From Christensenellaceae bacterium (GTDB lineage: Bacteria; Bacillota; Clostridia; Christensenellales; CAG-138): a DNA stretch of 64,000 nucleotides. The stretch lies in the NCBI GenBank assembly GCA_963675855.1, contig OY776633.1:538546-602545 (forward strand), given 5' to 3'. This document shows positions 15,538 through 62,507 of this stretch, piece after piece. Numbering within the stretch: position 1 is the stretch's first letter; the number at the start of each line of letters is the position of its first letter. The translations under genes were made by a program, and so were the position numbers. Under the pieces are notes generated by a model. It saw nothing but the letters and a program-made list of their open reading frames with translations. It did not search any database and was not told where the DNA came from.

Positions 15538-15546
15538 TGTTATAAT
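15538..15546 (+). promoter_or_regulatory. extended -10 promoter element (TGTTATAAT) of the hydrogenase operon
   Basis: tgt+tataat about 58 nt upstream of hydC ATG in an AT-rich gap; weak -35. Confidence 0.4.
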
Positions 15547-15603: not shown

Positions 15604-16098
15604 ATGGCTAAGCAGAAGACTGTCGTTCCCTTTCGCGGAACACAGGAACAGGAAAAACAGCTTTTAAAGATCATCGACGACCACAAAGAAGTCCCCGGCG
15701 CGCTGATGCCGGTGCTCCAGCAGGCGCAGGAGCTGTACGGCTATTTGCCCATCGAGGTGCAGACCAAAATCGCGGAGGGTCTCGGCATTTCGATCGAAGA
15801 GGTCTATCAGGTCGTTACGTTTTACGCGCAGTTTTCGCTTAACCCGACCGGCAAGCACCGCGTCGCGGTCTGCCTCGGCACTGCCTGCTATGTGAAAGGC
15901 GCGCAGGACATCCTCGAAGAACTTGAAAAAGAACTCGGTATCAAAGCCGGCAGCACCACACCGGACGGTATCTTTACGCTGGAAGCGACGCGCTGCCTCG
16001 GCTGCTGCGGCCTGGCTCCCGTCATCGTGGTGGACGAAGAGGTTTACGGTCGTCTTGTTCCCGCGGACATCAAGGGGATCCTCGCCAAATACAACTGA
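15604..16098 (+). CDS. hydC: NuoE-like [2Fe-2S] subunit of NADH/ferredoxin-dependent [FeFe]-hydrogenase (HydC / HndA type)
   Basis: RBS GAGGAGG; thioredoxin-like 2Fe-2S cysteines VCLGTACYV and RCLGCCGLAP. Confidence 0.85.
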   Translation: MAKQKTVVPFRGTQEQEKQLLKIIDDHKEVPGALMPVLQQAQELYGYLPIEVQTKIAEGLGISIEEVYQVVTFYAQFSLNPTGKHRVAVCLGTACYVKGAQDILEELEKELGIKAGSTTPDGIFTLEATRCLGCCGLAPVIVVDEEVYGRLVPADIKGILAKYN

Positions 16099-16175: not shown

Positions 16176-16526
16176 ATGAAGATTCGTGAAATCGCATCTC
16201 TGCTCGATGCAAAGATTCTCTGCGGGGAATTATTGCTTGACGACGAGGTACAGAGCGCCTGCGGAAGCGATATGATGAGCGACGTGCTCGCCTTTGTAAA
16301 AGACCAGGGCGTACTCGTTACGGGCCTCATCAATCCGCAGGTGATCCGCACCGCCATGATGATGGACATGCGCTGCGTCATATTCGTCCGGGGAAAGACC
16401 CCTACGGCGGAGATGGTGGAGCTGGCGAAAGATCATCATATCGCCGTTCTTGCCAGCGCGTCTCGCATGTATGAGGCATGCGGCAAGCTCTATGCGGGCG
16501 GCCTCGGCAGCGGGGTCTGCCGGTGA
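16176..16526 (+). CDS. DRTGG domain-containing protein
   Basis: 116 aa; pattern CGSDMMSDVL...VLVTGL..PQVIRTA resembles DRTGG domain; stop overlaps next start (TGATG). Confidence 0.65.
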   Translation: MKIREIASLLDAKILCGELLLDDEVQSACGSDMMSDVLAFVKDQGVLVTGLINPQVIRTAMMMDMRCVIFVRGKTPTAEMVELAKDHHIAVLASASRMYEACGKLYAGGLGSGVCR

Positions 16527-16960
16527 TGGCGGAGACGCTGAAATTTCACTACGACGTGGACGGGGACAACTTCACATCCGCCGGCGCCGCGTCCGTGGAG
16601 GTCAAGCGAAAGCTGCGGCAGCTCGGCCTGAATACGGAGACGATCCGGCGCGTTTCCATCGCGATGTACGAAGGCGAAATCAACATGGTCGTACACGCGC
16701 GCGGCGGTTCCGCAGACGTATACGTCGATCAGAACTGCGTTACGATTATACTGGCCGACCGAGGCCCGGGCATACCGGACATCGATCTGGCGATGCAGGA
16801 AGGATTCTCGACAGCGCCGGATAACATCCGCGCGCTGGGGTTTGGGGCGGGCATGGGCCTGCCGAACATGCAGCGATATACGGATGAAATGAAGATTGAA
16901 ACCAAGCTCGGCAAGGGCACAACGGTCACAATGAAGGTTTATATCAAGACGGATGGCTGA
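16526..16960 (+). CDS. GHKL-type ATP-binding protein (anti-sigma-factor/serine-kinase-like, no DHp domain)
   Basis: 144 aa; N-box-like YEGEINMVVHA, G1 DRGPGI, G2 GFGAGMGLPN; no His phospho-acceptor region. Confidence 0.7.
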   Translation: MAETLKFHYDVDGDNFTSAGAASVEVKRKLRQLGLNTETIRRVSIAMYEGEINMVVHARGGSADVYVDQNCVTIILADRGPGIPDIDLAMQEGFSTAPDNIRALGFGAGMGLPNMQRYTDEMKIETKLGKGTTVTMKVYIKTDG

Positions 16961-17073
16961 TATCCGAAACCCGTTACCAAACGAACAGGCGCGAATGTAT
17001 GAGCGAGCGCACCGGAACAGGACGGAGGCCGAACCCGCGCCAAAGGCGCCGCGCACGGCCGACGGAAAGGCGA

Positions 17074-18372
17074 ATGATACCGCGCATGAAGCAATATCAA
17101 CACTCGGTCTCACTCGACATCGAAAAATGCAAAGGCTGCACCAACTGCCTCAAACGCTGCCCGACCGAAGCCATCCGCATACGCGACGGTCACGCGGTGA
17201 TCGATTCGGACGTGTGCATCGACTGCGGCGAGTGCATCCGCCGCTGCCCCTATCAGGCGAAAAAAGCGAACTTCGACCGCTTTGAAGATATTCCCGCGGC
17301 AAAGCACCGCATCGCGCTGCCCGCGCCGTCGTTTTACGGACAGTTTGCCGATCTCGACGATGTGGACTATATCCTCCAGGGGCTTCTGGACATCGGATTC
17401 GACGACGTGTTCGAGGTCGCCCGCGCGGCGGAGATCGTAACCGAGTACACGCGCCGGTATATGAGCGGTGAGAACATCAGCTACCCGGTCATCAACTCCG
17501 CCTGCCCGGCGGTCGTCCGGCTCATTACACTGCGTTTCCCCTATCTTTGCGGCCATGTGATACCGCTGATGCCGCCCATCGAGGTGGCGGGAAAACTGGC
17601 GAGAGAGGAAGCGCTCGAAAAGCATCCGGATCTCAAGCCGGAGGACGTCGCGGTGGTGTTCGTTTCCCCGTGCCCCGCGAAAGCGAGCTATGTCAAAAAC
17701 GGTTTTCTGGGCGAGAAGAGTCATGTGGACTACGTCGTTTCGATGAGCGATATCTACTTCAAGCTCATCGGTACGATGAAGAAAAACACGATTCCGCAAA
17801 CAGCGAGCCGGAGCGGTATGATCGGCATGAGCTGGGCAAGCACGGGAGGCGAAGCGAGCGCGCTGTTCAACGATAAATACCTCGCGGCGGACGGCATCGA
17901 AAACGTCATCCGTGTGCTCGACCAGATCGAGACGGGACACTTCCCGATGCTGCAGTACGTAGAGCTCAACGCATGCCCGGGCGGCTGCGTCGGCGGGGTT
18001 GCGACGGTGGAGAATCCCTATATCGCGCGCGTGCGGCTGCAGGCGCTGCGGCGGTACTTGCCGGTATCACAGAATCGATTGGAGAAGGACGATATCGGAA
18101 CGTTCCCGGAGGAAATGCTCTTTCCGAAAGACCTCGAATATCGACCGGTCGGCAAATTGGACGAAGATTTGAACACGGCGATGCAGAAGATGAGCGAAAT
18201 CGAAGCGCTCACCGCATCCCTGCCCGCGCTGGACTGCGGCTCCTGCGGCGCCCCGACCTGCCGCGCGTTTGCCGAGGACGTCGTGCTCGGCGGTCGGAAC
18301 GTGGACGAGTGCATCGTCTATATGCGCGAGCGGATTTCGGAACTCGCCGGGCGCATGGAGGAAAAGCCTTGA
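17074..18372 (+). CDS. [FeFe]-hydrogenase-like protein (2x[4Fe-4S] ferredoxin domain + H-cluster domain + C-terminal Fe-S domain), putative sensory paralogue
   Basis: CKGCTNCLKRCP and CIDCGECIRRCP; degenerate H-cluster motifs NSACPAV / SPCPAK / ELNACPGGCVGG; C-terminal CGSCGAPTCRAF...C; start 17074 (GGAAAGG RBS), alternatives 16999/17086. Confidence 0.75.
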   Translation: MIPRMKQYQHSVSLDIEKCKGCTNCLKRCPTEAIRIRDGHAVIDSDVCIDCGECIRRCPYQAKKANFDRFEDIPAAKHRIALPAPSFYGQFADLDDVDYILQGLLDIGFDDVFEVARAAEIVTEYTRRYMSGENISYPVINSACPAVVRLITLRFPYLCGHVIPLMPPIEVAGKLAREEALEKHPDLKPEDVAVVFVSPCPAKASYVKNGFLGEKSHVDYVVSMSDIYFKLIGTMKKNTIPQTASRSGMIGMSWASTGGEASALFNDKYLAADGIENVIRVLDQIETGHFPMLQYVELNACPGGCVGGVATVENPYIARVRLQALRRYLPVSQNRLEKDDIGTFPEEMLFPKDLEYRPVGKLDEDLNTAMQKMSEIEALTASLPALDCGSCGAPTCRAFAEDVVLGGRNVDECIVYMRERISELAGRMEEKP

Positions 18373-18695
18373 CCGCCCTCGGCCTGAAAGAGGCGCTTTC
18401 GCTTACCGCGTTTGCGTTGCCGGAAAGCGGCAGGCGCGTATGCGGCGGATATACGGGCGATCTTTTGAGCTGGGTCATGGGGCGGGCCAAAGCGGATGAC
18501 GCATGGCTGACCATCATGTCCAACGCCAACATCGTCGCCGTCGCAAGCCTTGCGGACGTAAGCTGCGTCATCCTCTGCGAAGGCGTGGTGCCGGACGCGG
18601 GCGTACGGGATCTCGCCGCGGAAAAAGGCGTCAACCTCTTCGGCAGCGGCGAAACCATGTTTGAACTCTCCGCGCGGGTGAAAAACCTGCTATGA
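18369..18695 (+). CDS. DRTGG domain-containing protein (second copy)
   Basis: TTG 18369 overlaps upstream TGA; paralogous to 16176-16526 (GDLLSWVM...WLTIMSNANIVAVA). Confidence 0.55.
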   Translation: MTALGLKEALSLTAFALPESGRRVCGGYTGDLLSWVMGRAKADDAWLTIMSNANIVAVASLADVSCVILCEGVVPDAGVRDLAAEKGVNLFGSGETMFELSARVKNLL

Positions 18696-19447
18696 GCGAG
18701 TTTTTATGCGACCTTCACATTCACTCCTGCCTGTCCCCCTGCGGGGAAGAGGAGATGACGCCGTGGTCGATCGCGGGAATGGCCCGGTTGAACGGGCTGG
18801 ACATCGCCGCGCTGACCGACCATAATGCCTGCGGCAACTGTGCCCCCTTTTTCACCGCCTGCGCGCGCTACGGCGTGGTGCCTGTGGCGGGAATGGAGCT
18901 TACCACCAGCGAAGACGTACACCTGCTCTGCCTCTTTCGTACGCTCGCGGGCGCAAACGCGTTTGCCGCCGTCGTGGAACAAAAGCGCGTGAGGATGCGT
19001 AACCGGCCGGAGATCTTCGGCAGGCAGCAGTTCATCGGGCCCGACGACGGACCGGACGGCGAGGAAGAGGACCTGCTTGTCAACGCGACGAGCCTTTCGC
19101 TCGATGAAGCGGCGCAGCTGACGCTTGACAACAGCGGCGCGGCGATCCCCGCGCACATCGACCGCGAGGCAAACGGCGTGCTCGCCATTCTGGGCGAACT
19201 GCCGGAAAAACCGGATTTTCCCACTGTGGAGATCCGGAATCCGGAACGGGTCGACGGGTTGAAACGGGAGCATCCGAACCTGTACGGAAAGCGGATGATC
19301 ATATCCTCGGACGCGCACAGCCTCTGGCGGATACTCGAGCCGGGATACCCGATCGAACTGCCGTGCCCGTCGGACGCGGACGAACAGGCGGTGCGGGACG
19401 CGCTGATCGACTATCTCAACGGCGTGCCGGACGGAGGGCGCGCATGA
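18692..19447 (+). CDS. PHP-domain metal-dependent phosphoesterase
   Basis: ATGA overlap; N-terminal DLHIHS...TDHN histidine motifs typical of PHP domains. Confidence 0.75.
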   Translation: MSEFLCDLHIHSCLSPCGEEEMTPWSIAGMARLNGLDIAALTDHNACGNCAPFFTACARYGVVPVAGMELTTSEDVHLLCLFRTLAGANAFAAVVEQKRVRMRNRPEIFGRQQFIGPDDGPDGEEEDLLVNATSLSLDEAAQLTLDNSGAAIPAHIDREANGVLAILGELPEKPDFPTVEIRNPERVDGLKREHPNLYGKRMIISSDAHSLWRILEPGYPIELPCPSDADEQAVRDALIDYLNGVPDGGRA

Positions 19448-19995
19448 AGGAACTCTCGCTCAACATCCTCGATATCGCACAGAATTCGATCAAGGCGGAC
19501 GCGAGCCGCCTGACCATCGAACTTGAGCAGACCGGAAACCTGTTGACCGTCAATATAACCGACGACGGTACGGGCATGAGCCCGGAATTCGCGGCCGGCG
19601 CTGCGAACCCCTTTGTTACGACGCGCACGACCAGAAAGGTCGGCATGGGGCTGTCGTTGTTCAAGCTGGCGGCGGAACAGACGGGCAGAACGTTTTCCAT
19701 AGAGTCCCGCCGCGCAGAGAAAGACGGAGAAGCGCACGGCACCACCGTGACCGCGTCGTTCGATACGAGCCACTTGGACTGCGAACCGCTCGGGGACGTC
19801 GCTTCCACCGTCGTGACCCTGATCCAGGGCAACCCCGGACTGTCCCTTACGTATATCTATAGGAAGGACGGAACCGAACTGCGCCTTTGCACGGACGAAA
19901 TGCGCGAAGCGCTCGGGGAGGAATTGCCCCTGAACAGCCCGGAAGTGCTGGCCTGGGCGAGAGAATATATAGAAGAAATGGCATTGGCTGAATAA
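19444..19995 (+). CDS. GHKL-type ATP-binding protein (second copy, no DHp domain)
   Basis: ATGA overlap; N-box LNILDIAQNSIKA, G1 DDGTGM, G2 GMGLSLFK. Confidence 0.7.
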   Translation: MKELSLNILDIAQNSIKADASRLTIELEQTGNLLTVNITDDGTGMSPEFAAGAANPFVTTRTTRKVGMGLSLFKLAAEQTGRTFSIESRRAEKDGEAHGTTVTASFDTSHLDCEPLGDVASTVVTLIQGNPGLSLTYIYRKDGTELRLCTDEMREALGEELPLNSPEVLAWAREYIEEMALAE

Positions 19996-20106: not shown

Positions 20107-20472
20107 ATGAAATCATTGCAGGAACTTGCGGAACTCCGCGAGAAGATGAAGGGCAAGGTTGCGCTTCGCGAAGGCCAGAACGACATCCGCGTCGTCGTCG
20201 GTATGGCGACCTGCGGCATCGCGGCAGGTGCGCGCCCCGTGCTGAACACGCTGGTTGAAGAGGTGCAAAAGCAGGGCCTTGACAATAAGGTGACCGTCAC
20301 GCAGACCGGCTGCATCGGCATCTGCCGGCTGGAACCCATCGTGGAAGTCTTTGAACCGGGCAAGGAAAAAATCACTTATGTGAAGATGACCTCCGAAAAG
20401 GCAAAGCAGGTGGTCGGCGAGCACCTCAAGGGCGGCAGGCCCGTTTACGAATATACGATCGGCGAGAAATAG
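20107..20472 (+). CDS. thioredoxin-like (2Fe-2S) ferredoxin-domain protein (HydD-like small subunit)
   Basis: 121 aa; MATCGIAAGA and TGCIGICRLEP cysteine pairs. Confidence 0.75.
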   Translation: MKSLQELAELREKMKGKVALREGQNDIRVVVGMATCGIAAGARPVLNTLVEEVQKQGLDNKVTVTQTGCIGICRLEPIVEVFEPGKEKITYVKMTSEKAKQVVGEHLKGGRPVYEYTIGEK

Positions 20473-20487
20473 CGGGAGGATAGACCT

Positions 20488-22281
20488 ATGATTCGTTCAC
20501 ACGTACTCGTTTGCGGCGGAACCGGATGCACATCCAGCGGCAGCCCGGCCATACGCGAACGCCTGGAAAAAGAGATCCAGAAACAGGGCCTCGACGAGGA
20601 GATCAAAGTCGTCCAGACCGGATGCTTCGGCCTCTGCGAACTCGGCCCTATCATGATCGTCTATCCCGACGGCACGTTCTACAGCCGGGTGACGGAAGAG
20701 GACGTCGAGGAGATCGTCAGAGAGCACCTGCTCAAGGGCCGTCCCGTCGAGCGCCTTGTCTACAACCCGCGGTCCGAGGAGGCGCCCCACGGCGTTACCT
20801 CGCTGTCCGAAACGCCGTTTTATAAAAGCCAGCTTCGCATCGCGCTTCGCAACTGCGGCGTGATCAACCCCGAAGACATTGACGAATACATCGCGCTCGA
20901 CGGCTATCTTGCGCTGGGCAAGGTGCTCACCGAGATGAAACCGCAGGAAGTCATCGATCTCATGAAGGCAAGCGGCCTTCGCGGTCGCGGCGGAGCGGGG
21001 TTCCCGACCGGCACGAAGTGGCAGTTTGCCGCCAATAACGACGCGGATGAAAAATTCGTCATCTGCAACGCGGACGAGGGCGACCCCGGTGCGTTCATGG
21101 ACCGCTCCGTACTTGAGGGCGACCCCCACGCGGTGCTCGAGGCAATGGCCATCGCGGGTTACGCCATCGGCGGCACGCACGGCTATATCTACGTCCGTGC
21201 GGAGTACCCCATCGCGGTCAAGCGCCTCAAGATCGCCATCGAACAGGCGCGCGCGTACGGCCTGCTCGGCAAGAATATCTTCGGCACAAAGTTCGACTTC
21301 GACATCGATATCCGCCTCGGCGCCGGCGCGTTTGTCTGCGGCGAAGAGACGGCGCTGATGACCAGCATCGAAGGCTTCCGCGGCGAACCGCGCAACAAGC
21401 CCCCGTTCCCGGCGGTCAAGGGCCTCTTTGGCAAACCGACGATCATCAACAACGTGGAAACGCTCGCCAACGTGCCGCAGATCATCATCAAGGGCGCGGA
21501 TTGGTTTGCAAAGATGGGCACGGACTGCGCCAAAGGCACAAAGGTCTTCGCGCTTGGCGGCAAGATCAACAACACCGGCCTCGTCGAGATTCCGATGGGT
21601 ACGACGCTGCGCCAGATCCTCTTTGAAATCGGCGGCGGCATTCCAAACGGCAAGAAGTTCAAAGCCGCGCAGACCGGCGGCCCTTCGGGCGGCTGCATTC
21701 CGGAGCAGCATCTGGACACGCCGATCGACTACGAAAACCTCAAGTCCATCGGTTCCATGATGGGCAGCGGCGGCCTCATCGTCATGGACGAGGACAACTG
21801 CATGGTGGACGTGGCGCGCTTCTTTCTCGAATTCACGGTGGACGAGAGCTGCGGAAAGTGCACCCCCTGCCGCATCGGCACGCGGCGTTTGCTGGAGATG
21901 CTCAACAAAATCACCGAAGGCAACGGCACGCTCGAAGACCTCGACAAGATGGAAGAGCTCTGCCACTATATCGCAAACAACGCGCTCTGCGGCCTCGGCC
22001 AGACCGCGCCGAACCCCGTGCTTTCCACGCTGAAGTATTTCCGGAAGGAATACGAGGCGCACGTGGTGGACAAGCGCTGCCCGGCGGGCGTGTGTAAAAA
22101 GCTGCTGCACTATGTGATCGATCCGAATAAGTGCACGGGCTGCACGCTCTGCGCCAGAAGGTGTCCGGTGAGCTGTATCGCCGGCAAGGTGAAGGAGCCG
22201 CATGTCATCGATCAGAGCAAGTGCATCAAATGCGGCGCCTGCATGGAAAACTGCAAATTCGGCGCCATTTCGAAGAAGTAA
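20488..22281 (+). CDS. hydB: NuoF-like flavoprotein subunit of [FeFe]-hydrogenase (NADH-binding, FMN, Fe-S)
   Basis: GRGGAGFPTGTKW, ESCGKCTPCRIG, C-terminal CTGCTLCARRCP and CIKCGACMENC; N-terminal 2Fe-2S module. Confidence 0.9.
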   Translation: MIRSHVLVCGGTGCTSSGSPAIRERLEKEIQKQGLDEEIKVVQTGCFGLCELGPIMIVYPDGTFYSRVTEEDVEEIVREHLLKGRPVERLVYNPRSEEAPHGVTSLSETPFYKSQLRIALRNCGVINPEDIDEYIALDGYLALGKVLTEMKPQEVIDLMKASGLRGRGGAGFPTGTKWQFAANNDADEKFVICNADEGDPGAFMDRSVLEGDPHAVLEAMAIAGYAIGGTHGYIYVRAEYPIAVKRLKIAIEQARAYGLLGKNIFGTKFDFDIDIRLGAGAFVCGEETALMTSIEGFRGEPRNKPPFPAVKGLFGKPTIINNVETLANVPQIIIKGADWFAKMGTDCAKGTKVFALGGKINNTGLVEIPMGTTLRQILFEIGGGIPNGKKFKAAQTGGPSGGCIPEQHLDTPIDYENLKSIGSMMGSGGLIVMDEDNCMVDVARFFLEFTVDESCGKCTPCRIGTRRLLEMLNKITEGNGTLEDLDKMEELCHYIANNALCGLGQTAPNPVLSTLKYFRKEYEAHVVDKRCPAGVCKKLLHYVIDPNKCTGCTLCARRCPVSCIAGKVKEPHVIDQSKCIKCGACMENCKFGAISKK

Positions 22282-22293
22282 GGAGGCAGGAAC

Positions 22294-24036
22294 ATGGATC
22301 AGGTAACGGTAAAAATCAACGGGATCGAAACAAAGGTTCCCGCCAACTCGACCATACTGGAAGCGGCTTACAAAGCCGGCGTGCGCATTCCGACGCTGTG
22401 CTACCTAAAGGATATCAACGCCATCGCGGCGTGCCGCATATGCCTCGTGCAGGCGACCGGCGTGCGCGGGCACGCGGCCGCATGCGTGCAGCAGGTAGCG
22501 GACGGCATGGAGGTGCAGACCAACACGCCGGAACTCCAGGCGGCGAGAAAGACCACGCTGGAGCTCATATTGAGCAACCACCGCATGGACTGCCTCAGCT
22601 GCGAACGGAACCAGGCCTGTGAACTGCAGGCGCTGGCGCATGAGTACGGCGTCGACCAGTTCAAGTACATGGGCAGCGAAAACCTCAAGCCGCAGTATGA
22701 AGCAAGCGCGCCGCACCTCGTTCGCGACAACAGCAAGTGTATTCTCTGCCGCCGTTGCGTCGCGGTTTGCCACGCGAACCAGCACGTCGCCGTCATCGGC
22801 ACCAATGAGCGCGGCTTTGACACGCATGTCGGCAGCGCATTCGACATGCCGCTCAATAACACGAGCTGCATCAACTGCGGCCAGTGCATCTCCGTCTGCC
22901 CGACGGGCGCGCTCTCCGAGCGGGACGACACCCATCTCGTGTGGGACGCGCTCGCGGACAAAAGCAAGCACGTCATCGTCGCGCCCGCGCCAAGCGTACG
23001 CGTACAGCTCGGCGAATGCTTCGGCATGCCGATTGGCACCAACGTACAGGGCAAGCTCGTCACGGCGCTTCGACGCCTCGGCTTTGAGAAAGTGTTCGAC
23101 GTGGACTTCGCGGCGGACGTGACCATCATGGAGGAAGGCACCGAGCTGCTCAACCGGCTCAAGAACGGCGGCAAGCTGCCGCTGATCACCTCCTGCTCGC
23201 CGGGTTGGGTCAAGTTCTGTGAATACTACTTCCCGGATATGATCGAAAACCTTTCCAGCTGCAAGAGCCCGCAGCAGATGTTCGGCGCGCTTACGAAAAC
23301 CTATTACGCCGAGAAGATGGGCATCGACCCGAAAGACCTGTTCGTGGTCTCCATCATGCCCTGCACCGCGAAAAAATTCGAGTGCACGCGGGACAACGAA
23401 GCCGCGGCGGGCGTTCCGGACGTGGATGTTTCACTCACCACGCGCGAACTGGCGACCATGATCAAGCGTGCGGGCATTCGCTTTACCGAGCTGAAGGACG
23501 AGGAATTCGACCCCATGCTCGGCGTCGCGTCCGGTGCGGGCCACATCTTTGGCGCGACCGGCGGCGTCATGGAGGCGGCGCTTCGCACCGTCGCCGAGAT
23601 CGTCACCGGCAAGCCGCTCGATAACCTCGACTTCACCGCCGTGCGCGGCATCGAGGGCTGCAAGGAAGCGGAATACGACCTTGCGGGCACGAAAGTACGC
23701 GTGGCGGTCACAAGCGGTACGGAAAACGCATTTCAGCTGCTCGAAATGGTTAAAAAAGGCGAAGCGGATTACCACTTCATCGAAGTCATGGCCTGCCCGG
23801 GCGGCTGCGTCAACGGCGGCGGGCAGCCCCGCCAGCCGGGCGAAATCCGCAACTTCGTCGACCTGCGCGCGGAACGCGCCAAGGGCCTCTACGGCCAGGA
23901 CAAGAAGATGAAGCTGAGGAAAAGCCACGAAAACCCCTTCGTCAAGGAACTATACGATAACTACCTGGAAAAACCCGGTTCGCACAAGGCGCACCACATC
24001 CTGCACACCAAGTACGTCAAGAGAAAGGTGTACTGA
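22294..24036 (+). CDS. hydA: [FeFe]-hydrogenase catalytic subunit, M3 architecture (2Fe-2S, His-ligated 4Fe-4S, 2x4Fe-4S, H-domain)
   Basis: RBS AAGGAGG; H-cluster motifs TSCSPGW (non-canonical), MPCTAKKFE, EVMACPGGCVNGGGQP; CILCRRCVAVC and CINCGQCISVCP. Confidence 0.9.
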   Translation: MDQVTVKINGIETKVPANSTILEAAYKAGVRIPTLCYLKDINAIAACRICLVQATGVRGHAAACVQQVADGMEVQTNTPELQAARKTTLELILSNHRMDCLSCERNQACELQALAHEYGVDQFKYMGSENLKPQYEASAPHLVRDNSKCILCRRCVAVCHANQHVAVIGTNERGFDTHVGSAFDMPLNNTSCINCGQCISVCPTGALSERDDTHLVWDALADKSKHVIVAPAPSVRVQLGECFGMPIGTNVQGKLVTALRRLGFEKVFDVDFAADVTIMEEGTELLNRLKNGGKLPLITSCSPGWVKFCEYYFPDMIENLSSCKSPQQMFGALTKTYYAEKMGIDPKDLFVVSIMPCTAKKFECTRDNEAAAGVPDVDVSLTTRELATMIKRAGIRFTELKDEEFDPMLGVASGAGHIFGATGGVMEAALRTVAEIVTGKPLDNLDFTAVRGIEGCKEAEYDLAGTKVRVAVTSGTENAFQLLEMVKKGEADYHFIEVMACPGGCVNGGGQPRQPGEIRNFVDLRAERAKGLYGQDKKMKLRKSHENPFVKELYDNYLEKPGSHKAHHILHTKYVKRKVY

Positions 24037-24504: not shown

Positions 24505-25161
24505 TCAGAACATCTTGAACAGATGTTGGTTGAACCAGGAATACCCGAGGTCGTAAAACGGGATCATCCGCATCGCCATCGCGACGCCGGCGACCATCCA
24601 TAAAAGCAGCAGGCTCAACAGAACGAGCAAAAAGATCGTTGCCGGATGCCCTCCGCTTTTCTGCTTTTTCTGGTAAGGATCGTCGAAGACCTCTTCCTTG
24701 GTCTTGGCGTTCTTGGCCGGCTTTTTCTTGCGGGATTTTTTATCTTGTTTGGGCGCATCCAGCGGGCGCCAGATCTCGTCTTCAAGCGGTTCCGGAGGCT
24801 CGGGCTTCGGCTGCGCCGCGGGCTTCGGCTGTGCCGCGGGCTTCGGTGGCAGGGGCGTGCCGATTTCATGATCCAGCTCGCTTTCTATGGTGCGCATGTC
24901 GGTGCTGATCTGCGCGTACGTGGTGATGTTGCGCTCGATCAGATCGCCGAACCATAAGGACCAGCCGTCGTCGTCGGGCTGCTGCTGCACGATGGCGACA
25001 AACTGGCCGAACGTCTGACGCGAGGCTTCGCGCGCGAGTTCCTTATCGTGCGTTCGTTCATACGCCCGGTGATAGACCGCGCTGCCGTAAGCTGAAACGA
25101 GCTCTTTGACGGCGTCTTTGTCACCGCGCCGAATTCTGGAAACCAATTCTTCGAGCTGCAT
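24505..25161 (-). CDS. hypothetical C-terminally membrane-anchored protein; sigma-70 region-2-like N-terminus and Pro/Lys-rich linker
   Basis: Start at ATG 25161 (MQLEELVSRIRRGDKDAV...) after AGGAG; PKPAAQ repeats; C-terminal TM helix; only this part of the 712-aa track ORF looks real. Confidence 0.6.
   Translation of the reverse strand: MQLEELVSRIRRGDKDAVKELVSAYGSAVYHRAYERTHDKELAREASRQTFGQFVAIVQQQPDDDGWSLWFGDLIERNITTYAQISTDMRTIESELDHEIGTPLPPKPAAQPKPAAQPKPEPPEPLEDEIWRPLDAPKQDKKSRKKKPAKNAKTKEEVFDDPYQKKQKSGGHPATIFLLVLLSLLLLWMVAGVAMAMRMIPFYDLGYSWFNQHLFKMF
24802..24850. repeat. 18-nt tandem repeat (about 2.7 copies) inside a CDS, encoding PKPAAQ units
   Basis: gggcttcggctgcgccgc / gggcttcggctgtgccgc / gggcttcggtggc read directly. 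Confidence 0.85.
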
Positions 25162-47013: not shown

Positions 47014-47284
47014 TTGGATTTTCCCCTTTTCGGTTCATGAAATTTCTGATATCCGAGTGACGGCTGACCTGGTTTTTGCCCCCACACCCGCCAACTGGAA
47101 GGGTCGCTACCCGGCGAAATGCCTCTCACTACTGCCTCTCTCGAAATGCACGTTAGATATGCTTCGGTTGGACTTACATCTAGACCGCACCATGCTCACG
47201 GGGCTTTGCCCGCTTACGTGGATCGTTTTGCCTGCGACTGGCGTCGATTTTCAACCACAGACCCGAAACGCGGATACCAAAACC
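47014..47284 (-). other. long (about 270 nt) 5' leader or independent structured RNA upstream of the zinc-ribbon gene
   Basis: Runs from a near-consensus promoter to the RBS; no credible ORF; several local hairpins and a possible closing helix (47271-47278 with 47048-47055). Confidence 0.35.
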
Positions 47285-54652: not shown

Positions 54653-54729
54653 GTGCCCGTAGCTCAGCTGGATAGAGCGTTGGACTCCGACTCCAAAGGT
54701 CAGAGGTTCGAATCCTCCCGGGCACGCCA
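54653..54729 (+). tRNA. tRNA-Arg (anticodon CCG), CCA encoded
   Basis: Hand-folded cloverleaf: acceptor GTGCCCG/CGGGCAC, D-arm GCTC..GAGC, anticodon stem TTGGA/TCCAA with loop CTCCGAC, T-arm AGAGG-TTCGAAT-CCTCC, discriminator G + CCA. Confidence 0.9.
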
Positions 54730-54731
54730 AA

Positions 54732-54770
54732 AACCCCCTAAATAGGCGACTTTTTAGGGGGTTCAATTTT
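54732..54770 (+). terminator. hairpin/terminator after the tRNA
   Basis: ccccctaaa-10 nt loop-tttaggggg followed by ttcaatttt. Confidence 0.55.
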
Positions 54771-55329
54771 AGCTCATTTTTCAAAACGTGCGACAATGCG
54801 ACAAACCAGAAAAATGCTATTCGGGGTAGCAAGAGAAAGGCCTGCGAGGGGGTATGCTCGCAGGCCGGTTTTAGCTTTTGTCGCATTTTTGACATGCGAG
54901 GGGGTTGAAAATTTTTCCTGTCGTATGCATGAAAAAAAGGATTTGCCACATGCTGATGATTGACCCAAAAGGCAGAACCAACGACCTCCGGGTTATGAGT
55001 GCGAATTTTTACGAAATATCGCTATGATTATACGATGATAATTGAAGATACTCGCCTATCTTTGCGAATAATCCGAAATATATTTTTGATGATTGTTAGC
55101 GATTATTAGCCGTTATTGATGACGATAAACATCAAATAAACATCAGGCAGTAGGTTTCATTTTCACATTACTTAAAGTATGTTTATATTAAGCGAAAATT
55201 GATCCAGTCATAATATTTGAAAACGGTCTACTAGAGAAACTTAAGATTTGCGTTTCATGCTCATATTAGTGCGATTTCCTATTAACACAAAAGTTATCCT
55301 TCTCCGTAAGTAGATGATTTTTCAACTAT

Positions 55330-55480
55330 AATTTTATGCTTTTTTTGACCATTTTTGAATTAGCATACACAACTTCAGCGCTGCGGTCCCGAACTTCCGG
55401 CGCATCTGCGATATCGGCGTGCCAAGTTCCATCTGCTTCAGCGCAAAAGCGAATTGTTCCTTAGAGAAATTACTCTTCTT
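55330..55480 (-). mobile_element. fragment of an IS3-family transposase OrfA (N-terminal HTH region only)
   Basis: Minus strand translates to KKSNFSKEQFAFALKQMELGTPISQMRRKFG..., like IS3-family OrfA N-termini; no start codon, no remainder, no inverted repeats found. Confidence 0.55.
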
Positions 55481-55563
55481 CCTTTCGTCTCCTTTTTCAA
55501 TTTCTCAGTTTGTCATTTCCTCTCATTATAGGTGGCGACTTCTTTTCGGTGAGCAGGCAATTA

Positions 55564-56295
55564 TCAGAATTGATCAATCTGGTTGATTGAGAACTGGAAC
55601 TTATCACTGCGGATAAGTTCTTTGCAGACATGCAAAATTTTCCGATTCTGATCATAGGCGCATTCATAAACCAATAAAAGCGCGTCGTCAGGGTTAACGT
55701 GCAGGTGCTTTGCCTCTTTTTCCGTTGCATAACAGATTCCGATTGTTGCTTTGCCGGCTTGGGGATAGATATGATGTAATCTCAGGATTTCGTACAGCGA
55801 ACCATCGAGGTTTTTTTCCAGCAGGAAGGCATAGTCCGTTGTAAAGTAGTTGATTTCGATGATGGCCGGTTCGTTATCCATCAGACGGATGCGCTCGATG
55901 ACCACCAGATCGGAGCCTTCTGGAACGTTCAGGTCTTTACAGACCTTTCTGCTGGCGGGTTTAATCTTTGCCGACAGTGTTTGGGTTCCAGGGATGTGAC
56001 CGCGGCTGATGCAGGTTTTGGTGAAGTCGCTGAAGGTGCTCAGATCCCTGTCGATACGTTTTCCTACGACATAAGTTCCTTTGCCTTGATGTTTGGCTAA
56101 AAGCCCCTCGTCGACCAATTCCGCTATAGCGTTACGGACGGTGATACGACTGACGGAATATTGGACACCCAGTTCGATCTCTGAAGGAATCTGATCGCCT
56201 GTCTTCCAGATATTATTTTGAATATTGTCCCGGATCAGCTGCATAAGTTGCCGATATAGTGGTACTTCACTATTACTCAGCAATAGTTCACCCAT
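55564..56295 (-). CDS. GntR-family (HutC/FrlR-like) transcriptional regulator
   Basis: Start ATG 56295 (MGELLLSNSEVPLYRQL); wHTH LPSEIELGVQYSVSRITVRNAIAELVDEGLL; UTRA-type C-terminal domain. Confidence 0.85.
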   Translation of the reverse strand: MGELLLSNSEVPLYRQLMQLIRDNIQNNIWKTGDQIPSEIELGVQYSVSRITVRNAIAELVDEGLLAKHQGKGTYVVGKRIDRDLSTFSDFTKTCISRGHIPGTQTLSAKIKPASRKVCKDLNVPEGSDLVVIERIRLMDNEPAIIEINYFTTDYAFLLEKNLDGSLYEILRLHHIYPQAGKATIGICYATEKEAKHLHVNPDDALLLVYECAYDQNRKILHVCKELIRSDKFQFSINQIDQF

Positions 56296-56528
56296 AAAAC
56301 ATTCCCCAAGTTCGTAAATATCGTTATTATTATACGCAAAAAAACGGTTAAATAGCAATGCTTGAAACAAAAAAGTCGATTAAATCATATTAAAACGAGA
56401 TAGGACGTATTATAAGAGATAAAATTAACACAATTTCATCATTTACACAAAACAACAAATATAATTGTTGATTTATCCAAAATACCCCGAATAACAGTTA
56501 AATATCAATGTCAATTTATTTTTTATTG

Positions 56529-56557
56529 TTGACTATTACATTACAAATGGTTATAAT
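56529..56557 (+). promoter_or_regulatory. sigma-70-type promoter (TTGACT-17 nt-TATAAT) for the SIS/kinase operon
   Basis: Near-consensus hexamers about 60 nt upstream of ATG 56617 in the divergent intergenic region. Confidence 0.55.
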
Positions 56558-56558
56558 A

Positions 56559-56570
56559 CGTTATATAACG
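56559..56570. promoter_or_regulatory. candidate GntR-family operator: perfect palindrome CGTTATATAACG
   Basis: 12-bp perfect palindrome of GT-N-AC type immediately downstream of the -10; related half-site GTTATAA overlaps the -10. Confidence 0.4.
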
Positions 56571-56616
56571 TGTTGGCAATAAAAAGAAGCCAGCCTGAAT
56601 TTTAGGAGGTTCTGTA

Positions 56617-57594: not shown

Positions 57595-57869
57595 TCTAGA
57601 GTGAAGCTGTATTTCAAGAGGGAGGAAAAGCCTCCGGCTTTCCCCCTCCCACAATACATAATCCAAGCCTTGAACGGCTTGTTAATGACAAAGAACCCGT
57701 CAGTGCGAACGCTGCAAGCTTCTTCACCACAACTGCCGAAAAGAATGTCACAATAAATAAAAGTAATTGAACACACTTGGTTAAATTGCTTGTATCATGT
57801 GACTGTATCGAAAAAGCGATACAAATACACTTCGAAATTTGCATTAAGCTATAGTGAGGGAGAACGAGA

Positions 57870-58688: not shown

Positions 58689-58707
58689 AGAATAGAGGAA
58701 TTAAGAT

Positions 58708-59559: not shown

Positions 59560-59560
59560 C

Positions 59561-59989
59561 ATGGTTAAACTGATAGAAAATCAGATTGTAACTCGTAAAG
59601 AGTTCGAAATGATCAAGATCACGGACGAAGTATCAAAGGTCGTTGAAGAAAGCGGGATCACCAATGGCATGGTTGCAGTCATTACGAAGCATACGACAAC
59701 CGGGATAATAGTAAATGAAGCGCTTCCTTGTGTTGAGAAGGACATCGAGCTGCAGTTGGATCGTCTGGTTCCCAACGATTACCCTTATGTCCATACGCAC
59801 ATGCTTCCCACCTATGGAACCTGTTCTGGAAACGCGCCGGGGCACTTGAAGTCCATGTTGGCAGGCAATCACTGTATTTTCCCGGTTATGGATGGGAAAA
59901 TGATCCGTGGAAGAGAACAGAATATTTATTTTGTTGAGATGGACGGTTTGCAAGTCCGCAAATACTTCATCGAGGTCATGGGAGAATAA
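59561..59989 (+). CDS. YjbQ/UPF0047-family protein (secondary thiamine-phosphate synthase enzyme)
   Basis: 142 aa; HTTTGIIVNE and GHLKSML motifs typical of UPF0047. Confidence 0.75.
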   Translation: MVKLIENQIVTRKEFEMIKITDEVSKVVEESGITNGMVAVITKHTTTGIIVNEALPCVEKDIELQLDRLVPNDYPYVHTHMLPTYGTCSGNAPGHLKSMLAGNHCIFPVMDGKMIRGREQNIYFVEMDGLQVRKYFIEVMGE

Positions 59990-60035
59990 GCGCCTATATA
60001 TAGGCTAGAGCATTTTGTGGAATGAGGGATAACGT

Positions 60036-61428: not shown

Positions 61429-61489
61429 ATTTAATTACTGAATTATAAGCGATACGGCTTATATAAAACAAAAAAAAGGAGAAAAAGTC

Positions 61490-62446: not shown

Positions 62447-62507
62447 GCGTAATGCGAATCAAAAAATACGAGCAGATTCTATTTTGAGTGAAAAACAGCA
62501 TAGAATG

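What the first reader, a model, noticed from the sequence alone, without database searches (positions are those of the whole stretch)
16176..19995. Six-gene DRTGG / GHKL-ATPase / HydS-like / PHP module embedded in a HydABC [FeFe]-hydrogenase operon: possible non-canonical partner-switching circuit
Seen: six co-directional ORFs lie between hydC (15604-16098) and the 2Fe-2S/hydB/hydA genes (20107-24036):
- DRTGG protein (16176-16526)
- GHKL ATPase without a DHp/His domain (16526-16960)
- H-cluster-domain protein (17074-18372)
- second DRTGG protein (18369-18695)
- PHP phosphoesterase (18692-19447)
- second GHKL ATPase (19444-19995)

Four junctions overlap by 1-4 nt (TGATG, TTGA, ATGA, ATGA), implying translational coupling and probably stoichiometric complexes.

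Established: stand-alone GHKL proteins of this size resemble SpoIIAB/RsbW-type serine kinases. PHP domains are metal-dependent phosphoesterases. Hydrogenase paralogues with degenerate active sites are proposed H2 sensors.

Inference: a kinase, a phosphatase and a small single-domain partner, duplicated around a sensor-like hydrogenase, looks like a partner-switching or phospho-switch circuit built from unusual parts (DRTGG where STAS would be, PHP where PP2C would be). No DNA-binding output is encoded in the operon, so the target may be the hydrogenase complex itself. Similar accessory ORFs are, to my recollection, annotated in other clostridial and Thermotogae hyd operons, but I know of no assigned function.
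Basis: partly seen in the sequence, partly recalled or inferred. Interest (0 to 1): 0.7.

Follow-up and report, generated by a model that had tools for sequence, protein, structure and literature searches.

The report
Hydrogen-sensor signalling genes in hydrogenase operon
Six small genes inside an electron-bifurcating hydrogenase operon encode a putative hydrogen-sensing hydrogenase and five conserved helper proteins; these helpers are the best candidates for the sensor's still-unknown signalling partners.

Summary
All six ORFs, their domains and the four overlapping junctions are real. The ten-gene order hydC-DRTGG-GHKL-HydS-DRTGG-PHP-GHKL-Fdx-hydB-hydA recurs in 67 of 80 related genomes; 12 of the others are cut by contig ends. 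The same ten genes, with only hydC moved, occur in five distant thermophile genera.

The HydS-like protein is a group D (M2e) putative sensory [FeFe] hydrogenase, 47% identical to TamHydS. The literature already links this class to bifurcating hydrogenases and "kinases", but a 2026 paper still calls its signalling partner unknown.

New here:
- GHKL-1 is a SpoIIAB-type protein, coupled to DRTGG-1 and fused to it in two protein clusters.
- Both DRTGG paralogues share a near-invariant D-[LM]-[LM]-S loop.
- DRTGG-GHKL-HydS is a separable core.
- The PHP metal site is intact but carries an invariant Cys, and its nearest solved relatives cleave nucleic acids or nucleotides.
- GHKL-2 is not a copy of GHKL-1; its model resembles MutL/TopoVI-B/Hsp90 ATPases.

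The partner-switch idea is partly supported (about 0.4). Phosphotransfer, phosphatase substrate and output are untested. The locus is an ordinary member of a widespread but mechanistically uncharacterised operon.

The parts
15538..15546 (+). Candidate extended -10 promoter element (TGtTATAAT) upstream of hydC. Tentative.
   Evidence: Read from the sequence. The simple scan did not list it because the -35 is weak. No Rex-type operator was found.
15604..16098 (+). hydC, the thioredoxin-like [2Fe-2S] subunit of HydABC. It is the first gene of the operon here. In the thermophile genomes it lies between the PHP gene and GHKL-2.
   Evidence: Pfam 2Fe-2S_thioredx E=1.3e-52. Position compared.
16176..16526 (+). 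DRTGG-1, a stand-alone 116-aa DRTGG-fold protein. It is the proposed binding partner or substrate of GHKL-1.
   Evidence: Pfam DRTGG E=2.6e-7. AF2 model pLDDT 87. Foldseek: AF1212 (2ioj) TM 0.77, CBS-pyrophosphatase DRTGG domain, HPr kinase N-domain. 1432 representative clusters at E<=0.001.
16266..16289 (+). DRTGG-1 loop motif S31-D-M-M-S35-D-V-L38. Ser35 (16278-16280) is the candidate phospho-acceptor or contact residue.
   Evidence: Invariant in 78 orthologues. D32 140/145 and S35 144/147 among representatives clustered at 50% identity. Lowest-confidence, coil region of the model (block 31-40, pLDDT 58).
16526..16960 (+). GHKL-1, a 144-aa SpoIIAB/RsbW-type HATPase_c_2 protein with no DHp/His domain. 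Its start overlaps the DRTGG-1 stop (TGATG).
   Evidence: PDB best hits are anti-sigma F factor 1til/1l0o/1th8 at E=2.5e-10. NCBIfam spIIAB 62 bits, below the 135-bit cut-off. E-x-x-x-N, D-x-G-P-G-I, AM-x-EG-[YF]-STA and GFGAGMGLPN are invariant across distant orthologues. DRTGG-GHKL fusions P0467 and P0478.
17074..18372 (+). HydS, a group D (M2e) putative sensory [FeFe] hydrogenase. It has two N-terminal [4Fe-4S] motifs, an H-domain and a C-terminal Cx2Cx4Cx16C cluster domain, and no PAS domain. Alternative start at 17086.
   Evidence: Pfam. 47% identity to TamHydS over 426 aligned residues, E=8e-133. Motifs SAC144P (C299 replaced by Ala), SPC200P (M353 replaced by Ser), NAC301PGGC305 and C388/391/396/413. 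All 16 cluster cysteines are 67/67 conserved.
18369..18695 (+). DRTGG-2, a 108-aa paralogue of DRTGG-1 with a TTG start inside the HydS stop (TTGA). Its motif is G30-D-L-L-S34-W-V-M37 (18456-18479; Ser34 at 18468-18470).
   Evidence: BLASTP against DRTGG-1 E=7e-10. Pfam DRTGG 21.9 bits, below the cut-off. The motif is invariant in 78 orthologues and the Ser is kept in all distant orthologues. The HydS-DRTGG-2 junction overlaps in 68/79 loci.
18692..19447 (+). PHP-family metal-dependent phosphoesterase with a complete ligand set and an invariant Cys17 at the third-ligand position (LSPC).
   Evidence: Pfam PHP E=9.3e-8. Invariant D7, H9, H11, C17, D43, H44, E69, H77, H155, D207 and H209 across distant orthologues. 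Profile against PDB: EndoQ 5zb8 E=1.5e-8, TM0559, Cv1693, RNase AM.
19444..19995 (+). GHKL-2, a 183-aa Bergerat-fold ATPase of a different subfamily (HATPase_c + HATPase_c_3) with a roughly 75-aa C-terminal extension. In all lineages it lies immediately upstream of Fdx-hydB-hydA.
   Evidence: Pfam. Not similar to GHKL-1. AF2 pLDDT 85. Foldseek top 50 are almost all GHL-type ATPases: PMS2/MutL N-terminal domain, TopoVI-B, GyrB, Hsp90/GRP94, TMq about 0.6 over about 180 columns. D10-x-x-x-N14, D-[DN]-G-x-G and PF-x-TTR-x-x-R-x-x-G-x-G are invariant.
20107..20472 (+). Small thioredoxin-like [2Fe-2S] ferredoxin, always found between GHKL-2 and hydB.
   Evidence: Pfam 2Fe-2S_thioredx E=4e-6. NCBIfam 2Fe-2S ferredoxin E=1.7e-10. 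Position conserved.
20488..22281 (+). hydB, the NADH/FMN-binding subunit of the electron-bifurcating hydrogenase.
   Evidence: Pfam Complex1_51K E=3.9e-46 and NADH_4Fe-4S E=6e-36.
22294..24036 (+). hydA, the catalytic group A [FeFe] hydrogenase subunit.
   Evidence: Pfam Fe_hyd_lg_C E=2.6e-101, Fe_hyd_SSU and Fer2_4.

Best explanation
The six genes are the sensory and regulatory half of a conserved ten-gene operon for an electron-bifurcating HydABC hydrogenase. HydS is a group D [FeFe] hydrogenase that binds a full H-cluster. By analogy with TamHydS, it reports H2 rather than turning it over quickly.

The invariant core is the triad DRTGG-1, GHKL-1 and HydS.
- GHKL-1 is a SpoIIAB-type ATP-binding protein. 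It is made together with DRTGG-1 and binds it.
- GHKL-1 most likely phosphorylates the near-invariant loop serine: Ser35 of DRTGG-1 and possibly Ser34 of DRTGG-2.
- DRTGG-2 and the PHP phosphoesterase are translationally coupled to HydS. They probably form a complex with HydS.
- In that complex the H2-dependent state of HydS would control access of the PHP enzyme, which resets the phospho-state.

The result would be a partner-switch-like phospho-switch. No transcription factor is conserved in or beside the operon. The output is therefore more likely post-translational, acting on HydABC or its small ferredoxin and possibly through GHKL-2, than transcriptional. GHKL-2 looks like an ATP-driven conformational ATPase rather than a kinase.

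Shown: gene content, order, coupling and conservation; the family assignments; intact ATP and metal sites; DRTGG-GHKL fusions.
Inferred: kinase activity, the acceptor serine, PHP acting as a protein phosphatase, HydS gating, and the target.
For: - Operon anatomy and overlaps.
- Conservation: all ten genes in 67/80 genome loci, with 12 others cut by contig ends, and the six-gene module in 74/74. The same ten genes occur in Thermoanaerobacter, Caldicellulosiruptor bescii, Coprothermobacter, Caldicoprobacter, Thermoanaerobacterium and metagenomes.
- Overlapping junctions are conserved at DRTGG-1>GHKL-1, HydS>DRTGG-2, DRTGG-2>PHP and PHP>GHKL-2, and absent or rare (0 to 5 loci) at the other five junctions.
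- HydS belongs to group D. PMC8163306 argues from TamHydS's properties for a sensory role. PMC13104023 cites H2-induced secondary-structure changes and states that the interaction partners are still unidentified.
- GHKL-1 is SpoIIAB-like with all ATP-binding boxes.
- Two divergent single-chain DRTGG-GHKL fusions exist.
- A Peptococcaceae MAG carries the DRTGG-GHKL-HydS triad alone.
- Ser35 is 144/147 conserved among representatives clustered at 50% identity. It is kept in every DRTGG-2 examined and sits in a low-confidence loop.
- The PHP ligand set is complete.
- No HTH protein is found in or beside the operon in any lineage.
Against: - There are no phosphorylation data of any kind.
- The DRTGG fold is unrelated to STAS.
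- The SpoIIAB residue Arg20, which I recall as important for SpoIIAA/sigma-F binding, aligns with Ser in GHKL-1.
- GHKL-1 scores far below the spIIAB equivalog cut-off.
- The PHP protein's closest solved relatives are nucleic-acid or nucleotide phosphoesterases. The PHP protein-tyrosine phosphatases CpsB and YwqE, recalled from memory, did not appear among the hits at E<=1.
- Two other hydroxyl residues, Thr49 and Thr59, are equally conserved. The conserved loop may simply be a binding surface.
- GHKL-2 resembles non-kinase GHL ATPases.
- The triad-only locus has no PHP gene nearby.
- The two fusions could be gene-calling artefacts, since the same library holds obviously chimeric entries.
Confidence: 0.4

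Rival explanations
1. Classical anti-sigma output. GHKL-1 is a true anti-sigma factor for a sigma factor encoded elsewhere, and DRTGG-1 acts as its anti-anti-sigma factor. HydS and H2 would then control transcription of the hyd genes or a wider regulon, not enzyme activity.
For: The closest solved and curated relatives of GHKL-1 are SpoIIAB and RsbW. The gene order antagonist-kinase-third gene mirrors spoIIAA-spoIIAB-sigF (established knowledge). The triad-only locus shows that the output need not be HydABC.
Against: No sigma factor, or any HTH protein, is conserved in or next to the operon in the window, the 80 related loci or the thermophile loci. GHKL-1 is below the spIIAB and RsbW equivalog cut-offs.
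Confidence: 0.15
2. Nucleotide-ligand signalling rather than protein phosphorylation. The DRTGG proteins bind an adenine nucleotide, dinucleotide or redox cofactor. The PHP enzyme degrades a nucleotide messenger or pAp-like compound. The GHKL proteins act as ATP-dependent switches. H2 sensing would thus be combined with energy or redox status.
For: The PHP profile matches EndoQ, Cv1693 (3',5'-bisphosphonucleotide phosphatase), RNase AM and TM0559 best. The DRTGG fold also occurs in the nucleotide-regulated CBS-pyrophosphatase regulatory region and in the HPr kinase N-domain. GHKL-2 resembles non-kinase GHL ATPases.
Against: No cyclase or synthetase for a messenger is present in the operon. No ligand-binding role is established for a DRTGG domain itself (my recollection of the CBS-pyrophosphatase work: nucleotides bind the CBS pair). 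The SpoIIAB-type GHKL-1 and its fusion to DRTGG-1 point to a protein-protein or kinase relationship.
Confidence: 0.2
3. Assembly, protection or quality control of HydABC. GHKL-2 would be an Hsp90/MutL-like ATPase clamp. The other small proteins would help to assemble, stabilise or inactivate the bifurcating complex. HydS would serve as a low-activity auxiliary hydrogenase rather than as a sensor.
For: GHKL-2 has a GHL-like fold and a fixed position directly before Fdx-hydB-hydA in every lineage. TamHydS does catalyse H+/H2 interconversion (PMC8163306).
Against: The DRTGG-GHKL-HydS triad exists without hydABC nearby. From memory (Soboh et al. 2004, not checked here), the GHKL-2 homologue did not co-purify with the Caldanaerobacter enzyme. 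H-cluster maturation is known to need only HydE/F/G (established knowledge). GHKL-2 lacks a transducer domain.
Confidence: 0.12
4. A fortuitous neighbourhood or a mobile or defence cassette inserted into the hyd operon.
For: Weak NCBIfam similarities of the PHP protein to TrlF and of GHKL-2 to MzaB, both defence-associated.
Against: The order is identical in 74/74 loci and across phyla. There are no PADLOC hits. GC content is the same as the surroundings.
Confidence: 0.01

Closest known systems
Group D (M2e) putative sensory [FeFe] hydrogenase, TamHydS of Thermoanaerobacter mathranii, and its operon
   Same: Same domain architecture: 2x[4Fe-4S], H-domain, C-terminal Cx2Cx4Cx16C, no PAS. Same active-site substitutions (C299 replaced by Ala, M353 replaced by Ser). 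47% identity. The same ten genes occur around the Thermoanaerobacter orthologue.
   Different: In the window hydC is the first gene of the operon, not located between the PHP gene and GHKL-2. [quoted passage not shown] They do not discuss the DRTGG or PHP genes or the SpoIIAB affinity (PMC8163306). No AraC gene is present here or in the Thermoanaerobacter locus I fetched.
SpoIIAA/SpoIIAB/SpoIIE and RsbV/RsbW/RsbU partner-switching modules
   Same: A small GHKL protein of the HATPase_c_2 type, about 145 aa, with intact ATP site, whose best structural relatives are SpoIIAB. It is encoded directly after, and overlapping, a small single-domain partner that has a conserved Ser after an acidic residue. 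A metal-dependent phosphoesterase is encoded in the same operon.
   Different: The partner has a DRTGG fold, not STAS. The phosphoesterase is PHP, not PP2C. No sigma factor is present. GHKL-1 is below the family cut-offs. Phosphorylation is unproven.
Group C (M2f) HydS/HfsB sensory hydrogenases with PAS domain and PP2C-type serine phosphatase (Thermotoga maritima, Ruminococcus albus, Thermoanaerobacterium hfs operon)
   Same: An H-cluster protein with the same extra C-terminal cluster, lacking the proton-pathway Cys, placed beside catalytic hydrogenase genes and beside Ser-phospho-signalling genes (PMC8163306, PMC11837493).
   Different: Group D has no PAS domain. The associated proteins here are DRTGG, SpoIIAB-like GHKL and PHP instead of PAS and PP2C.
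[NiFe] regulatory hydrogenase HoxBC-HoxJ-HoxA / HupUV-HupT-HupR
   Same: The logic is the same: a low-activity hydrogenase paralogue that reports H2 to a GHKL-type protein, which controls the catalytic hydrogenase (established knowledge; discussed in PMC8163306).
   Different: The metal site is unrelated. HoxJ is a PAS-containing histidine kinase with DHp and a response regulator. Here there is no HisKA/DHp domain, no receiver domain and no DNA-binding protein.
Stand-alone DRTGG protein AF1212 (PDB 2ioj) and the DRTGG domain of CBS-pyrophosphatase (3l31)
   Same: Same fold, TM 0.72-0.77.
   Different: The TGGDR signature is replaced by T-G-L-x-N. The hyd-linked proteins also carry the extra D-[LM]-M-S-D-V-L loop, which does not align to AF1212 or the pyrophosphatase domain.
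PHP-family phosphoesterases: EndoQ, Cv1693/TrpH-RNase AM, TM0559; and the PHP protein-tyrosine phosphatases CpsB/YwqE
   Same: HxH...H...E...H...H...DxH metal-ligand pattern.
   Different: The third ligand is an invariant Cys (LSPC) instead of the Asp/His of TrpH/YcdX-type enzymes. There was no detectable sequence match to CpsB or YwqE.

Membership tests
Group D (M2e) [FeFe] hydrogenase | H-domain with the four H-cluster cysteines | tested here: met
   Fe_hyd_lg_C E=3.7e-31. C144, C200, C301 and C305 are each conserved 67/67.
Group D (M2e) [FeFe] hydrogenase | Proton-pathway Cys299 absent and Met353 replaced by Ser/Thr (criteria from PMC8163306) | tested here: met
   Motifs NSAC144P and VSPC200P.
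Group D (M2e) [FeFe] hydrogenase | Two N-terminal [4Fe-4S] motifs and a C-terminal Cx2Cx4Cx16C motif | tested here: met
   Fer4 hits and PF04060 E=1.9e-12. C388-x2-C391-x4-C396-x16-C413.
Group D (M2e) [FeFe] hydrogenase | No PAS domain (this distinguishes it from group C/M2f) | tested here: met
   No PAS family among the Pfam hits at E<=0.01.
Group D (M2e) [FeFe] hydrogenase | Actual H2 binding or sensing behaviour | not testable with these tools
   Known only for the 47%-identical TamHydS (PMC8163306, PMC13104023).
SpoIIAB/RsbW anti-sigma serine kinases (for GHKL-1) | HATPase_c_2 Bergerat fold with N, G1 and G2 boxes and ATP lid | tested here: met
   Pfam HATPase_c_2 E=9e-10. Full-length alignment to SpoIIAB. 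Boxes invariant.
SpoIIAB/RsbW anti-sigma serine kinases (for GHKL-1) | Scores above the curated equivalog cut-off | tested here: not met
   spIIAB 62 bits vs cut-off 135; RsbW 24.6 bits vs cut-off 145.
SpoIIAB/RsbW anti-sigma serine kinases (for GHKL-1) | STAS-domain antagonist and a cognate sigma factor | tested here: not met
   No STAS or sigma domain in the operon. The DRTGG-1 model has no STAS-like match.
SpoIIAB/RsbW anti-sigma serine kinases (for GHKL-1) | Serine phosphorylation of the partner | not testable with these tools
   Only a conserved candidate Ser was identified.
Two-component histidine kinases (for GHKL-1 and GHKL-2) | DHp/HisKA domain with phospho-accepting His, and a response regulator | tested here: not met
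   No HisKA or Response_reg hit in any of the ten proteins. The public annotations 'histidine kinase' are therefore misleading.
GHL-type ATPases (MutL/Hsp90/TopoVI-B/GyrB) (for GHKL-2) | Extended Bergerat fold with an acidic residue four positions before the N-box Asn | tested here: met
   HATPase_c_3 E=1.3e-8. Foldseek top hits PMS2/MutL/TopoVI-B/GyrB/Hsp90. D10-x-x-x-N14 invariant.
GHL-type ATPases (MutL/Hsp90/TopoVI-B/GyrB) (for GHKL-2) | Transducer (ribosomal S5 fold) domain contributing a Lys to the ATP site; ATP-driven dimerisation | tested here: not met
   The protein ends at residue 183. Only a roughly 75-aa helix/strand extension follows the ATP-binding core. Dimerisation is not testable here.
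DRTGG domain (Pfam PF07085) | Profile match above the gathering score, and the DRTGG fold | tested here: met
   DRTGG-1: 30.8 bits vs cut-off 25.2, fold TM 0.77 to 2ioj. DRTGG-2: 21.9 bits, below the cut-off, assigned through paralogy and orthologue hits.
PHP phosphoesterases (Pfam PF02811) | Profile match and the conserved His/Asp/Glu metal ligands | tested here: met
   33 bits vs cut-off 26.4. Ligand positions invariant, with Cys17 at the third position.
PHP protein phosphatases (CpsB/YwqE type) | Detectable relationship to the known PHP protein-tyrosine phosphatases | tested here: not met
   Neither name appears among the PDB hits at E<=1, with either the single sequence or the profile. That these enzymes have solved structures is my recollection.

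The most novel reading that the evidence does not exclude
A previously undescribed type of partner-switching phospho-relay. A DRTGG-fold protein takes the place of the STAS antagonist. A Cys-containing trinuclear PHP enzyme takes the place of the PP2C phosphatase. An [FeFe] H-cluster protein is the input sensor. The switch would tell a flavin-based electron-bifurcating hydrogenase, post-translationally and through a MutL/Hsp90-like mini-ATPase, what the ambient H2 level is.
Probability: 0.2. Interest if true: 0.8.

Novelty: new variant of a known kind. Interest (0 to 1): 0.5.

Why it matters
How group D [FeFe] 'sensory' hydrogenases pass on their signal is an open question. Land et al. 2020 asked it, and a 2026 Biochemistry paper states that identifying the interaction partners is critical. 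[quoted passage not shown]

This analysis names five concrete, universally co-encoded candidates and orders them into two translationally coupled blocks. It also points to a specific residue to mutate: Ser35 in DRTGG-1 and Ser34 in DRTGG-2.

The operon controls H2 production by bifurcating hydrogenases in abundant gut, rumen and digester Clostridia, and in biofuel thermophiles such as Thermoanaerobacter, Caldicellulosiruptor and C. thermocellum. Understanding the switch would therefore matter for H2, ethanol and methane yields. If the mechanism holds, it would also give the DRTGG domain its first defined molecular role.

Tried and rejected
- Histidine-kinase or two-component reading: rejected. 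No HisKA/DHp or receiver domain is present.
- 'Duplicated kinase' reading: rejected. GHKL-1 and GHKL-2 are not significantly similar and have different structural neighbours.
- DRTGG as a cryptic STAS fold: rejected by Foldseek.
- Rex operator upstream of hydC: no match beyond chance, none in the promoter region.
- Riboswitch or leader RNA in the operon: no Rfam hit.
- Anti-phage defence cassette: no PADLOC hit.
- Conserved neighbouring transcription factor: none. Upstream genes differ between lineages (SPOR-domain protein, FtsJ/TlyA, ECF transporter, galE).
- Literature on DRTGG with hydrogenase, TamHydS with kinase, and anti-sigma with sensory hydrogenase: nothing relevant.
The models therefore rest on shallow alignments of at least 70% identity.
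- The protein-search tool lists only the 120 closest hits. To get round this, distant contexts were reached through the published TamHydS sequence.
- A metagenome scan seeded with the triad-only HydS found no second triad-only locus.
- Complex prediction (multimer) was not available.

Full report
**1. Observation**

ORF listing and direct reading of the sequence confirm six co-directional ORFs between hydC (15604-16098) and the 2Fe-2S/hydB/hydA genes (20107-24036). They are 16176-16526, 16526-16960, 17074-18372, 18369-18695, 18692-19447 and 19444-19995. For the third, an upstream in-frame ATG at 16999 and a downstream one at 17086 are alternative starts.

The second DRTGG gene uses a TTG start with a GGAGG 7 nt upstream.

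Pfam confirms every domain call:
- DRTGG, E=2.6e-7.
- HATPase_c/HATPase_c_2.
- Two Fer4 motifs, Fe_hyd_lg_C (E=3.7e-31) and PF04060.
- DRTGG again, at 21.9 bits, below the 25.2-bit cut-off.
- PHP, E=9.3e-8.
- HATPase_c plus HATPase_c_3.

No internal terminator stands out, and GC content matches the surroundings.

**2. Conservation**

A scan of one genome per species with the HydS-like protein found 264 relatives. The best 80 loci have 57-90% HydS identity and come from Christensenellaceae, Oscillospiraceae, Acutalibacteraceae and other Clostridia MAGs. I searched them with the ten window proteins.

- All ten genes occur in the same order and orientation in 67 loci.
- Twelve more loci are cut by contig ends, and one lacks a detectable hydC.
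- The six-gene module is complete in 74 of 74 loci with enough flank.

To reach distant lineages I took the TamHydS sequence from the supplement of PMC6984386. I searched with it and fetched contigs for diverse hits. The following all carry DRTGG, GHKL(HATPase_c_2), HydS, DRTGG, PHP, hydC, GHKL(HATPase_c/_3), Fdx, hydB, hydA:
- Thermoanaerobacter
- Caldicellulosiruptor bescii
- Coprothermobacter
- Caldicoprobacter
- Thermoanaerobacterium

These are the same ten genes with only hydC moved. Metagenome contigs with enough flank show the same order.

One Peptococcaceae MAG carries only DRTGG-GHKL-HydS. It has no hydABC within 9 kb, and sits next to a CheW gene and a PAS-GGDEF gene. The module therefore splits into three parts:
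- an invariant triad;
- a DRTGG-2/PHP pair that follows HydS;
- GHKL-2, which always directly precedes Fdx-hydB-hydA.

Overlapping junctions are conserved at the places seen in the window: 52/78, 68/79, 67/77 and 53/77 loci. Two of the other five junctions never overlap and the other three do so in only 2 to 5 loci. This argues for two co-translated blocks, [DRTGG-1, GHKL-1] and [HydS, DRTGG-2, PHP(GHKL-2)].

**3. HydS**

The protein is 47% identical to TamHydS over 426 aligned residues (E=8e-133). It has the published group D (M2e) hallmarks (criteria from PMC8163306):
- two N-terminal [4Fe-4S] motifs;
- SAC144P, with the proton-pathway Cys299 replaced by Ala;
- SPC200P, with Met353 replaced by Ser;
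- NAC301PGGC305;
- C-terminal Cx2Cx4Cx16C;
- no PAS domain.

All 16 cluster cysteines are conserved 67/67. The site is altered, not degenerate.

The literature already knows this class. [quoted passage not shown] The gene Cthe_0339 inside the C. thermocellum hyd cluster is annotated as a histidine kinase.

A 2026 paper shows that the C-terminal cluster is not reduced by H2. [quoted passage not shown] I found no paper that mentions the DRTGG or PHP genes in this context.

**4. GHKL-1**

- Its best solved relatives are SpoIIAB anti-sigma F factors, aligned over the full length (E=2.5e-10).
- Its best curated family is spIIAB at 62 bits, well below the 135-bit equivalog cut-off.
- The Glu-x-x-x-Asn N box, D-x-G-P-G-I G1 box, an AM-x-EG-[YF]-STA lid segment and the GFGAGMGLPN G2 box are invariant from Christensenellaceae to Coprothermobacter.
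- It has no DHp/HisKA domain.

It is thus a member of the SpoIIAB/RsbW-like superfamily but not of either equivalog. It has neither a STAS partner nor a sigma factor beside it.

**5. The DRTGG proteins**

DRTGG-1 and DRTGG-2 are paralogues (E=7e-10). An AlphaFold model of DRTGG-1 (pLDDT 87) matches three folds and shows no STAS resemblance:
- the stand-alone DRTGG protein AF1212 (TM 0.77);
- the DRTGG domain of CBS-pyrophosphatase;
- the HPr-kinase N-domain.

Both paralogues share a D-[LMV]-[LM]-S-x-[VA] motif, S31-D-M-M-S35-D-V-L in DRTGG-1 and G30-D-L-L-S34-W-V-M in DRTGG-2. Its Ser is kept in every sequence compared. Among 150 DRTGG-1 representatives clustered at 50% identity, D32 is 140/145 and S35 is 144/147. 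In the model this segment is the least confident, non-regular part. The motif lies upstream of the region that aligns to AF1212 or the pyrophosphatase domain.

Thr49 and Thr59 are equally conserved, so the acceptor assignment is a hypothesis.

Two divergent representatives, P0467 (270 aa) and P0478 (275 aa), are full-length DRTGG-1 joined by a linker of about 12-18 residues to full-length GHKL-1. This is Rosetta-stone support for a direct DRTGG-1/GHKL-1 relationship. The caveat is that the same library also contains obvious chimeras.

**6. PHP**

The metal-ligand pattern is complete and invariant: D7, H9, H11, D43/H44, E69, H77, H155 and D207/H209. The third-ligand position, six residues after the HxH, is an invariant Cys (LSPC). 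From memory, TrpH/YcdX-type enzymes have Asp or His there.

A profile of six distant orthologues matches the following:
- Endonuclease Q, best hit (E=1.5e-8);
- TM0559;
- the pAp phosphatase Cv1693;
- RNase AM.

The PHP protein-tyrosine phosphatases CpsB and YwqE, recalled from memory, do not appear among the hits. The enzyme is probably active, but sequence gives no support for a phosphoprotein substrate.

**7. GHKL-2**

It is not significantly similar to GHKL-1 (E=0.2). It carries an HATPase_c_3 signature. Its model (pLDDT 85) aligns over about 180 columns with PMS2/MutL N-terminal domains, TopoVI-B, GyrB and Hsp90/GRP94, not with histidine kinases or SpoIIAB.

Its ATP-binding motifs are invariant, but it has no transducer domain. 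I read it as a small ATP-dependent conformational ATPase rather than a second kinase. That reading rests on a model built from a shallow alignment.

**8. Mechanism proposed**

Shown: one conserved operon, two coupled blocks, a separable triad, intact ATP and metal sites, and no DNA-binding protein in or conserved beside the operon.

Inferred:
- HydS senses H2.
- GHKL-1 binds DRTGG-1, and probably phosphorylates the loop Ser of DRTGG-1 and perhaps DRTGG-2.
- The PHP enzyme, made with HydS and DRTGG-2, resets the state under control of HydS.
- The output is post-translational, acting on HydABC or its ferredoxin, possibly via GHKL-2.

I put this partner-switch-like reading at about 0.4. The rivals are:
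- the same switch with an unlinked sigma factor as output (0.15);
- nucleotide-ligand signalling, with the PHP enzyme as a nucleotide phosphoesterase (0.2);
- an assembly or quality-control role (0.12);
- chance or defence cassette (about 0.01).

**9. Comparison and novelty**

The locus is an ordinary member of a widespread operon type whose existence and presumed regulatory nature are in the literature. To that extent the finding is not new.

What is not in the searched literature is the composition and logic of the accessory set:
- a SpoIIAB-like GHKL protein with a DRTGG partner;
- a second DRTGG protein with a Cys-bearing PHP enzyme;
- a GHL-like mini-ATPase.

Compared with known partner-switching modules, two of the three parts are replaced. 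Compared with known H2-sensing systems (HoxJ/HoxA, PAS-HydS with PP2C), the transducers differ. I therefore rate it a new variant of a known kind, conditional on experiments.

Interest is moderate (0.5). A specialist would not be surprised by the cluster. The analysis does, however, turn the open question of how group D HydS signals into specific, cheap experiments.

Noticed in passing
window 47055-47271 (-): A full-length raiA RNA motif (Rfam RF03072, 180 bits, E=9e-46).
   Followed up: no
window 54653-62500: tRNA-Arg(CCG) at 54653-54729 is followed by a low-GC block (44-48% against about 60%). The block encodes a GntR/UTRA regulator, a SIS protein, a PfkB kinase, an Amidohydro_2 protein, UPF0047 and an amino-acid-type ABC transporter with binding protein. 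An asparaginase gene (62620-63765) follows just beyond it. It looks like a horizontally acquired sugar-amine or Amadori-compound utilisation island. No integrase was seen.
   Followed up: partly
window 24505-25161 (-): A 218-aa ORF convergent with the hyd operon. It has no Pfam hit, a Pro/Lys-rich middle and a C-terminal hydrophobic segment. It is embedded in a spurious 712-aa ORF call.
   Followed up: partly
L084 8116-10329 (Peptococcaceae MAG JBMNCQ010000055.1): The DRTGG-GHKL-HydS triad occurs alone, without DRTGG-2, PHP or hydABC. A CheW gene lies upstream and a PAS-GGDEF gene downstream. The group D sensor may feed other outputs in some organisms.
   Followed up: partly
proteins P0467 and P0478 (50%-identity representatives): Single polypeptides with full-length DRTGG-1 joined to full-length SpoIIAB-like GHKL-1 by a short linker. 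P0377 joins a SPOR domain to DRTGG-1, matching the SPOR gene that precedes the module in Caldicoprobacter, Thermoanaerobacter and Thermoanaerobacterium.
   Followed up: partly
window 18692-19447 (PHP), residue Cys17 (18740-18742): The hyd-linked PHP proteins have an invariant Cys at the third metal-ligand position (LSPC). This could mean a different metal (Fe?) or redox sensitivity.
   Followed up: partly
window 15604-16098 versus L081-L083, L085-L089, L092, L093, L096: hydC is the first gene of the operon in the Christensenellales/Oscillospirales-type loci. In the thermophile-type loci it lies between the PHP gene and GHKL-2. This is the only rearrangement among the ten genes.
   Followed up: yes
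public annotations of the module proteins: Names given by sources are inconsistent and partly misleading. DRTGG-1 is called 'predicted transcriptional regulator' although it has no HTH. GHKL-2 is called 'sensor histidine kinase', 'anti-sigma regulatory factor (Ser/Thr protein kinase)' or 'ATP-binding protein'.
   Followed up: no
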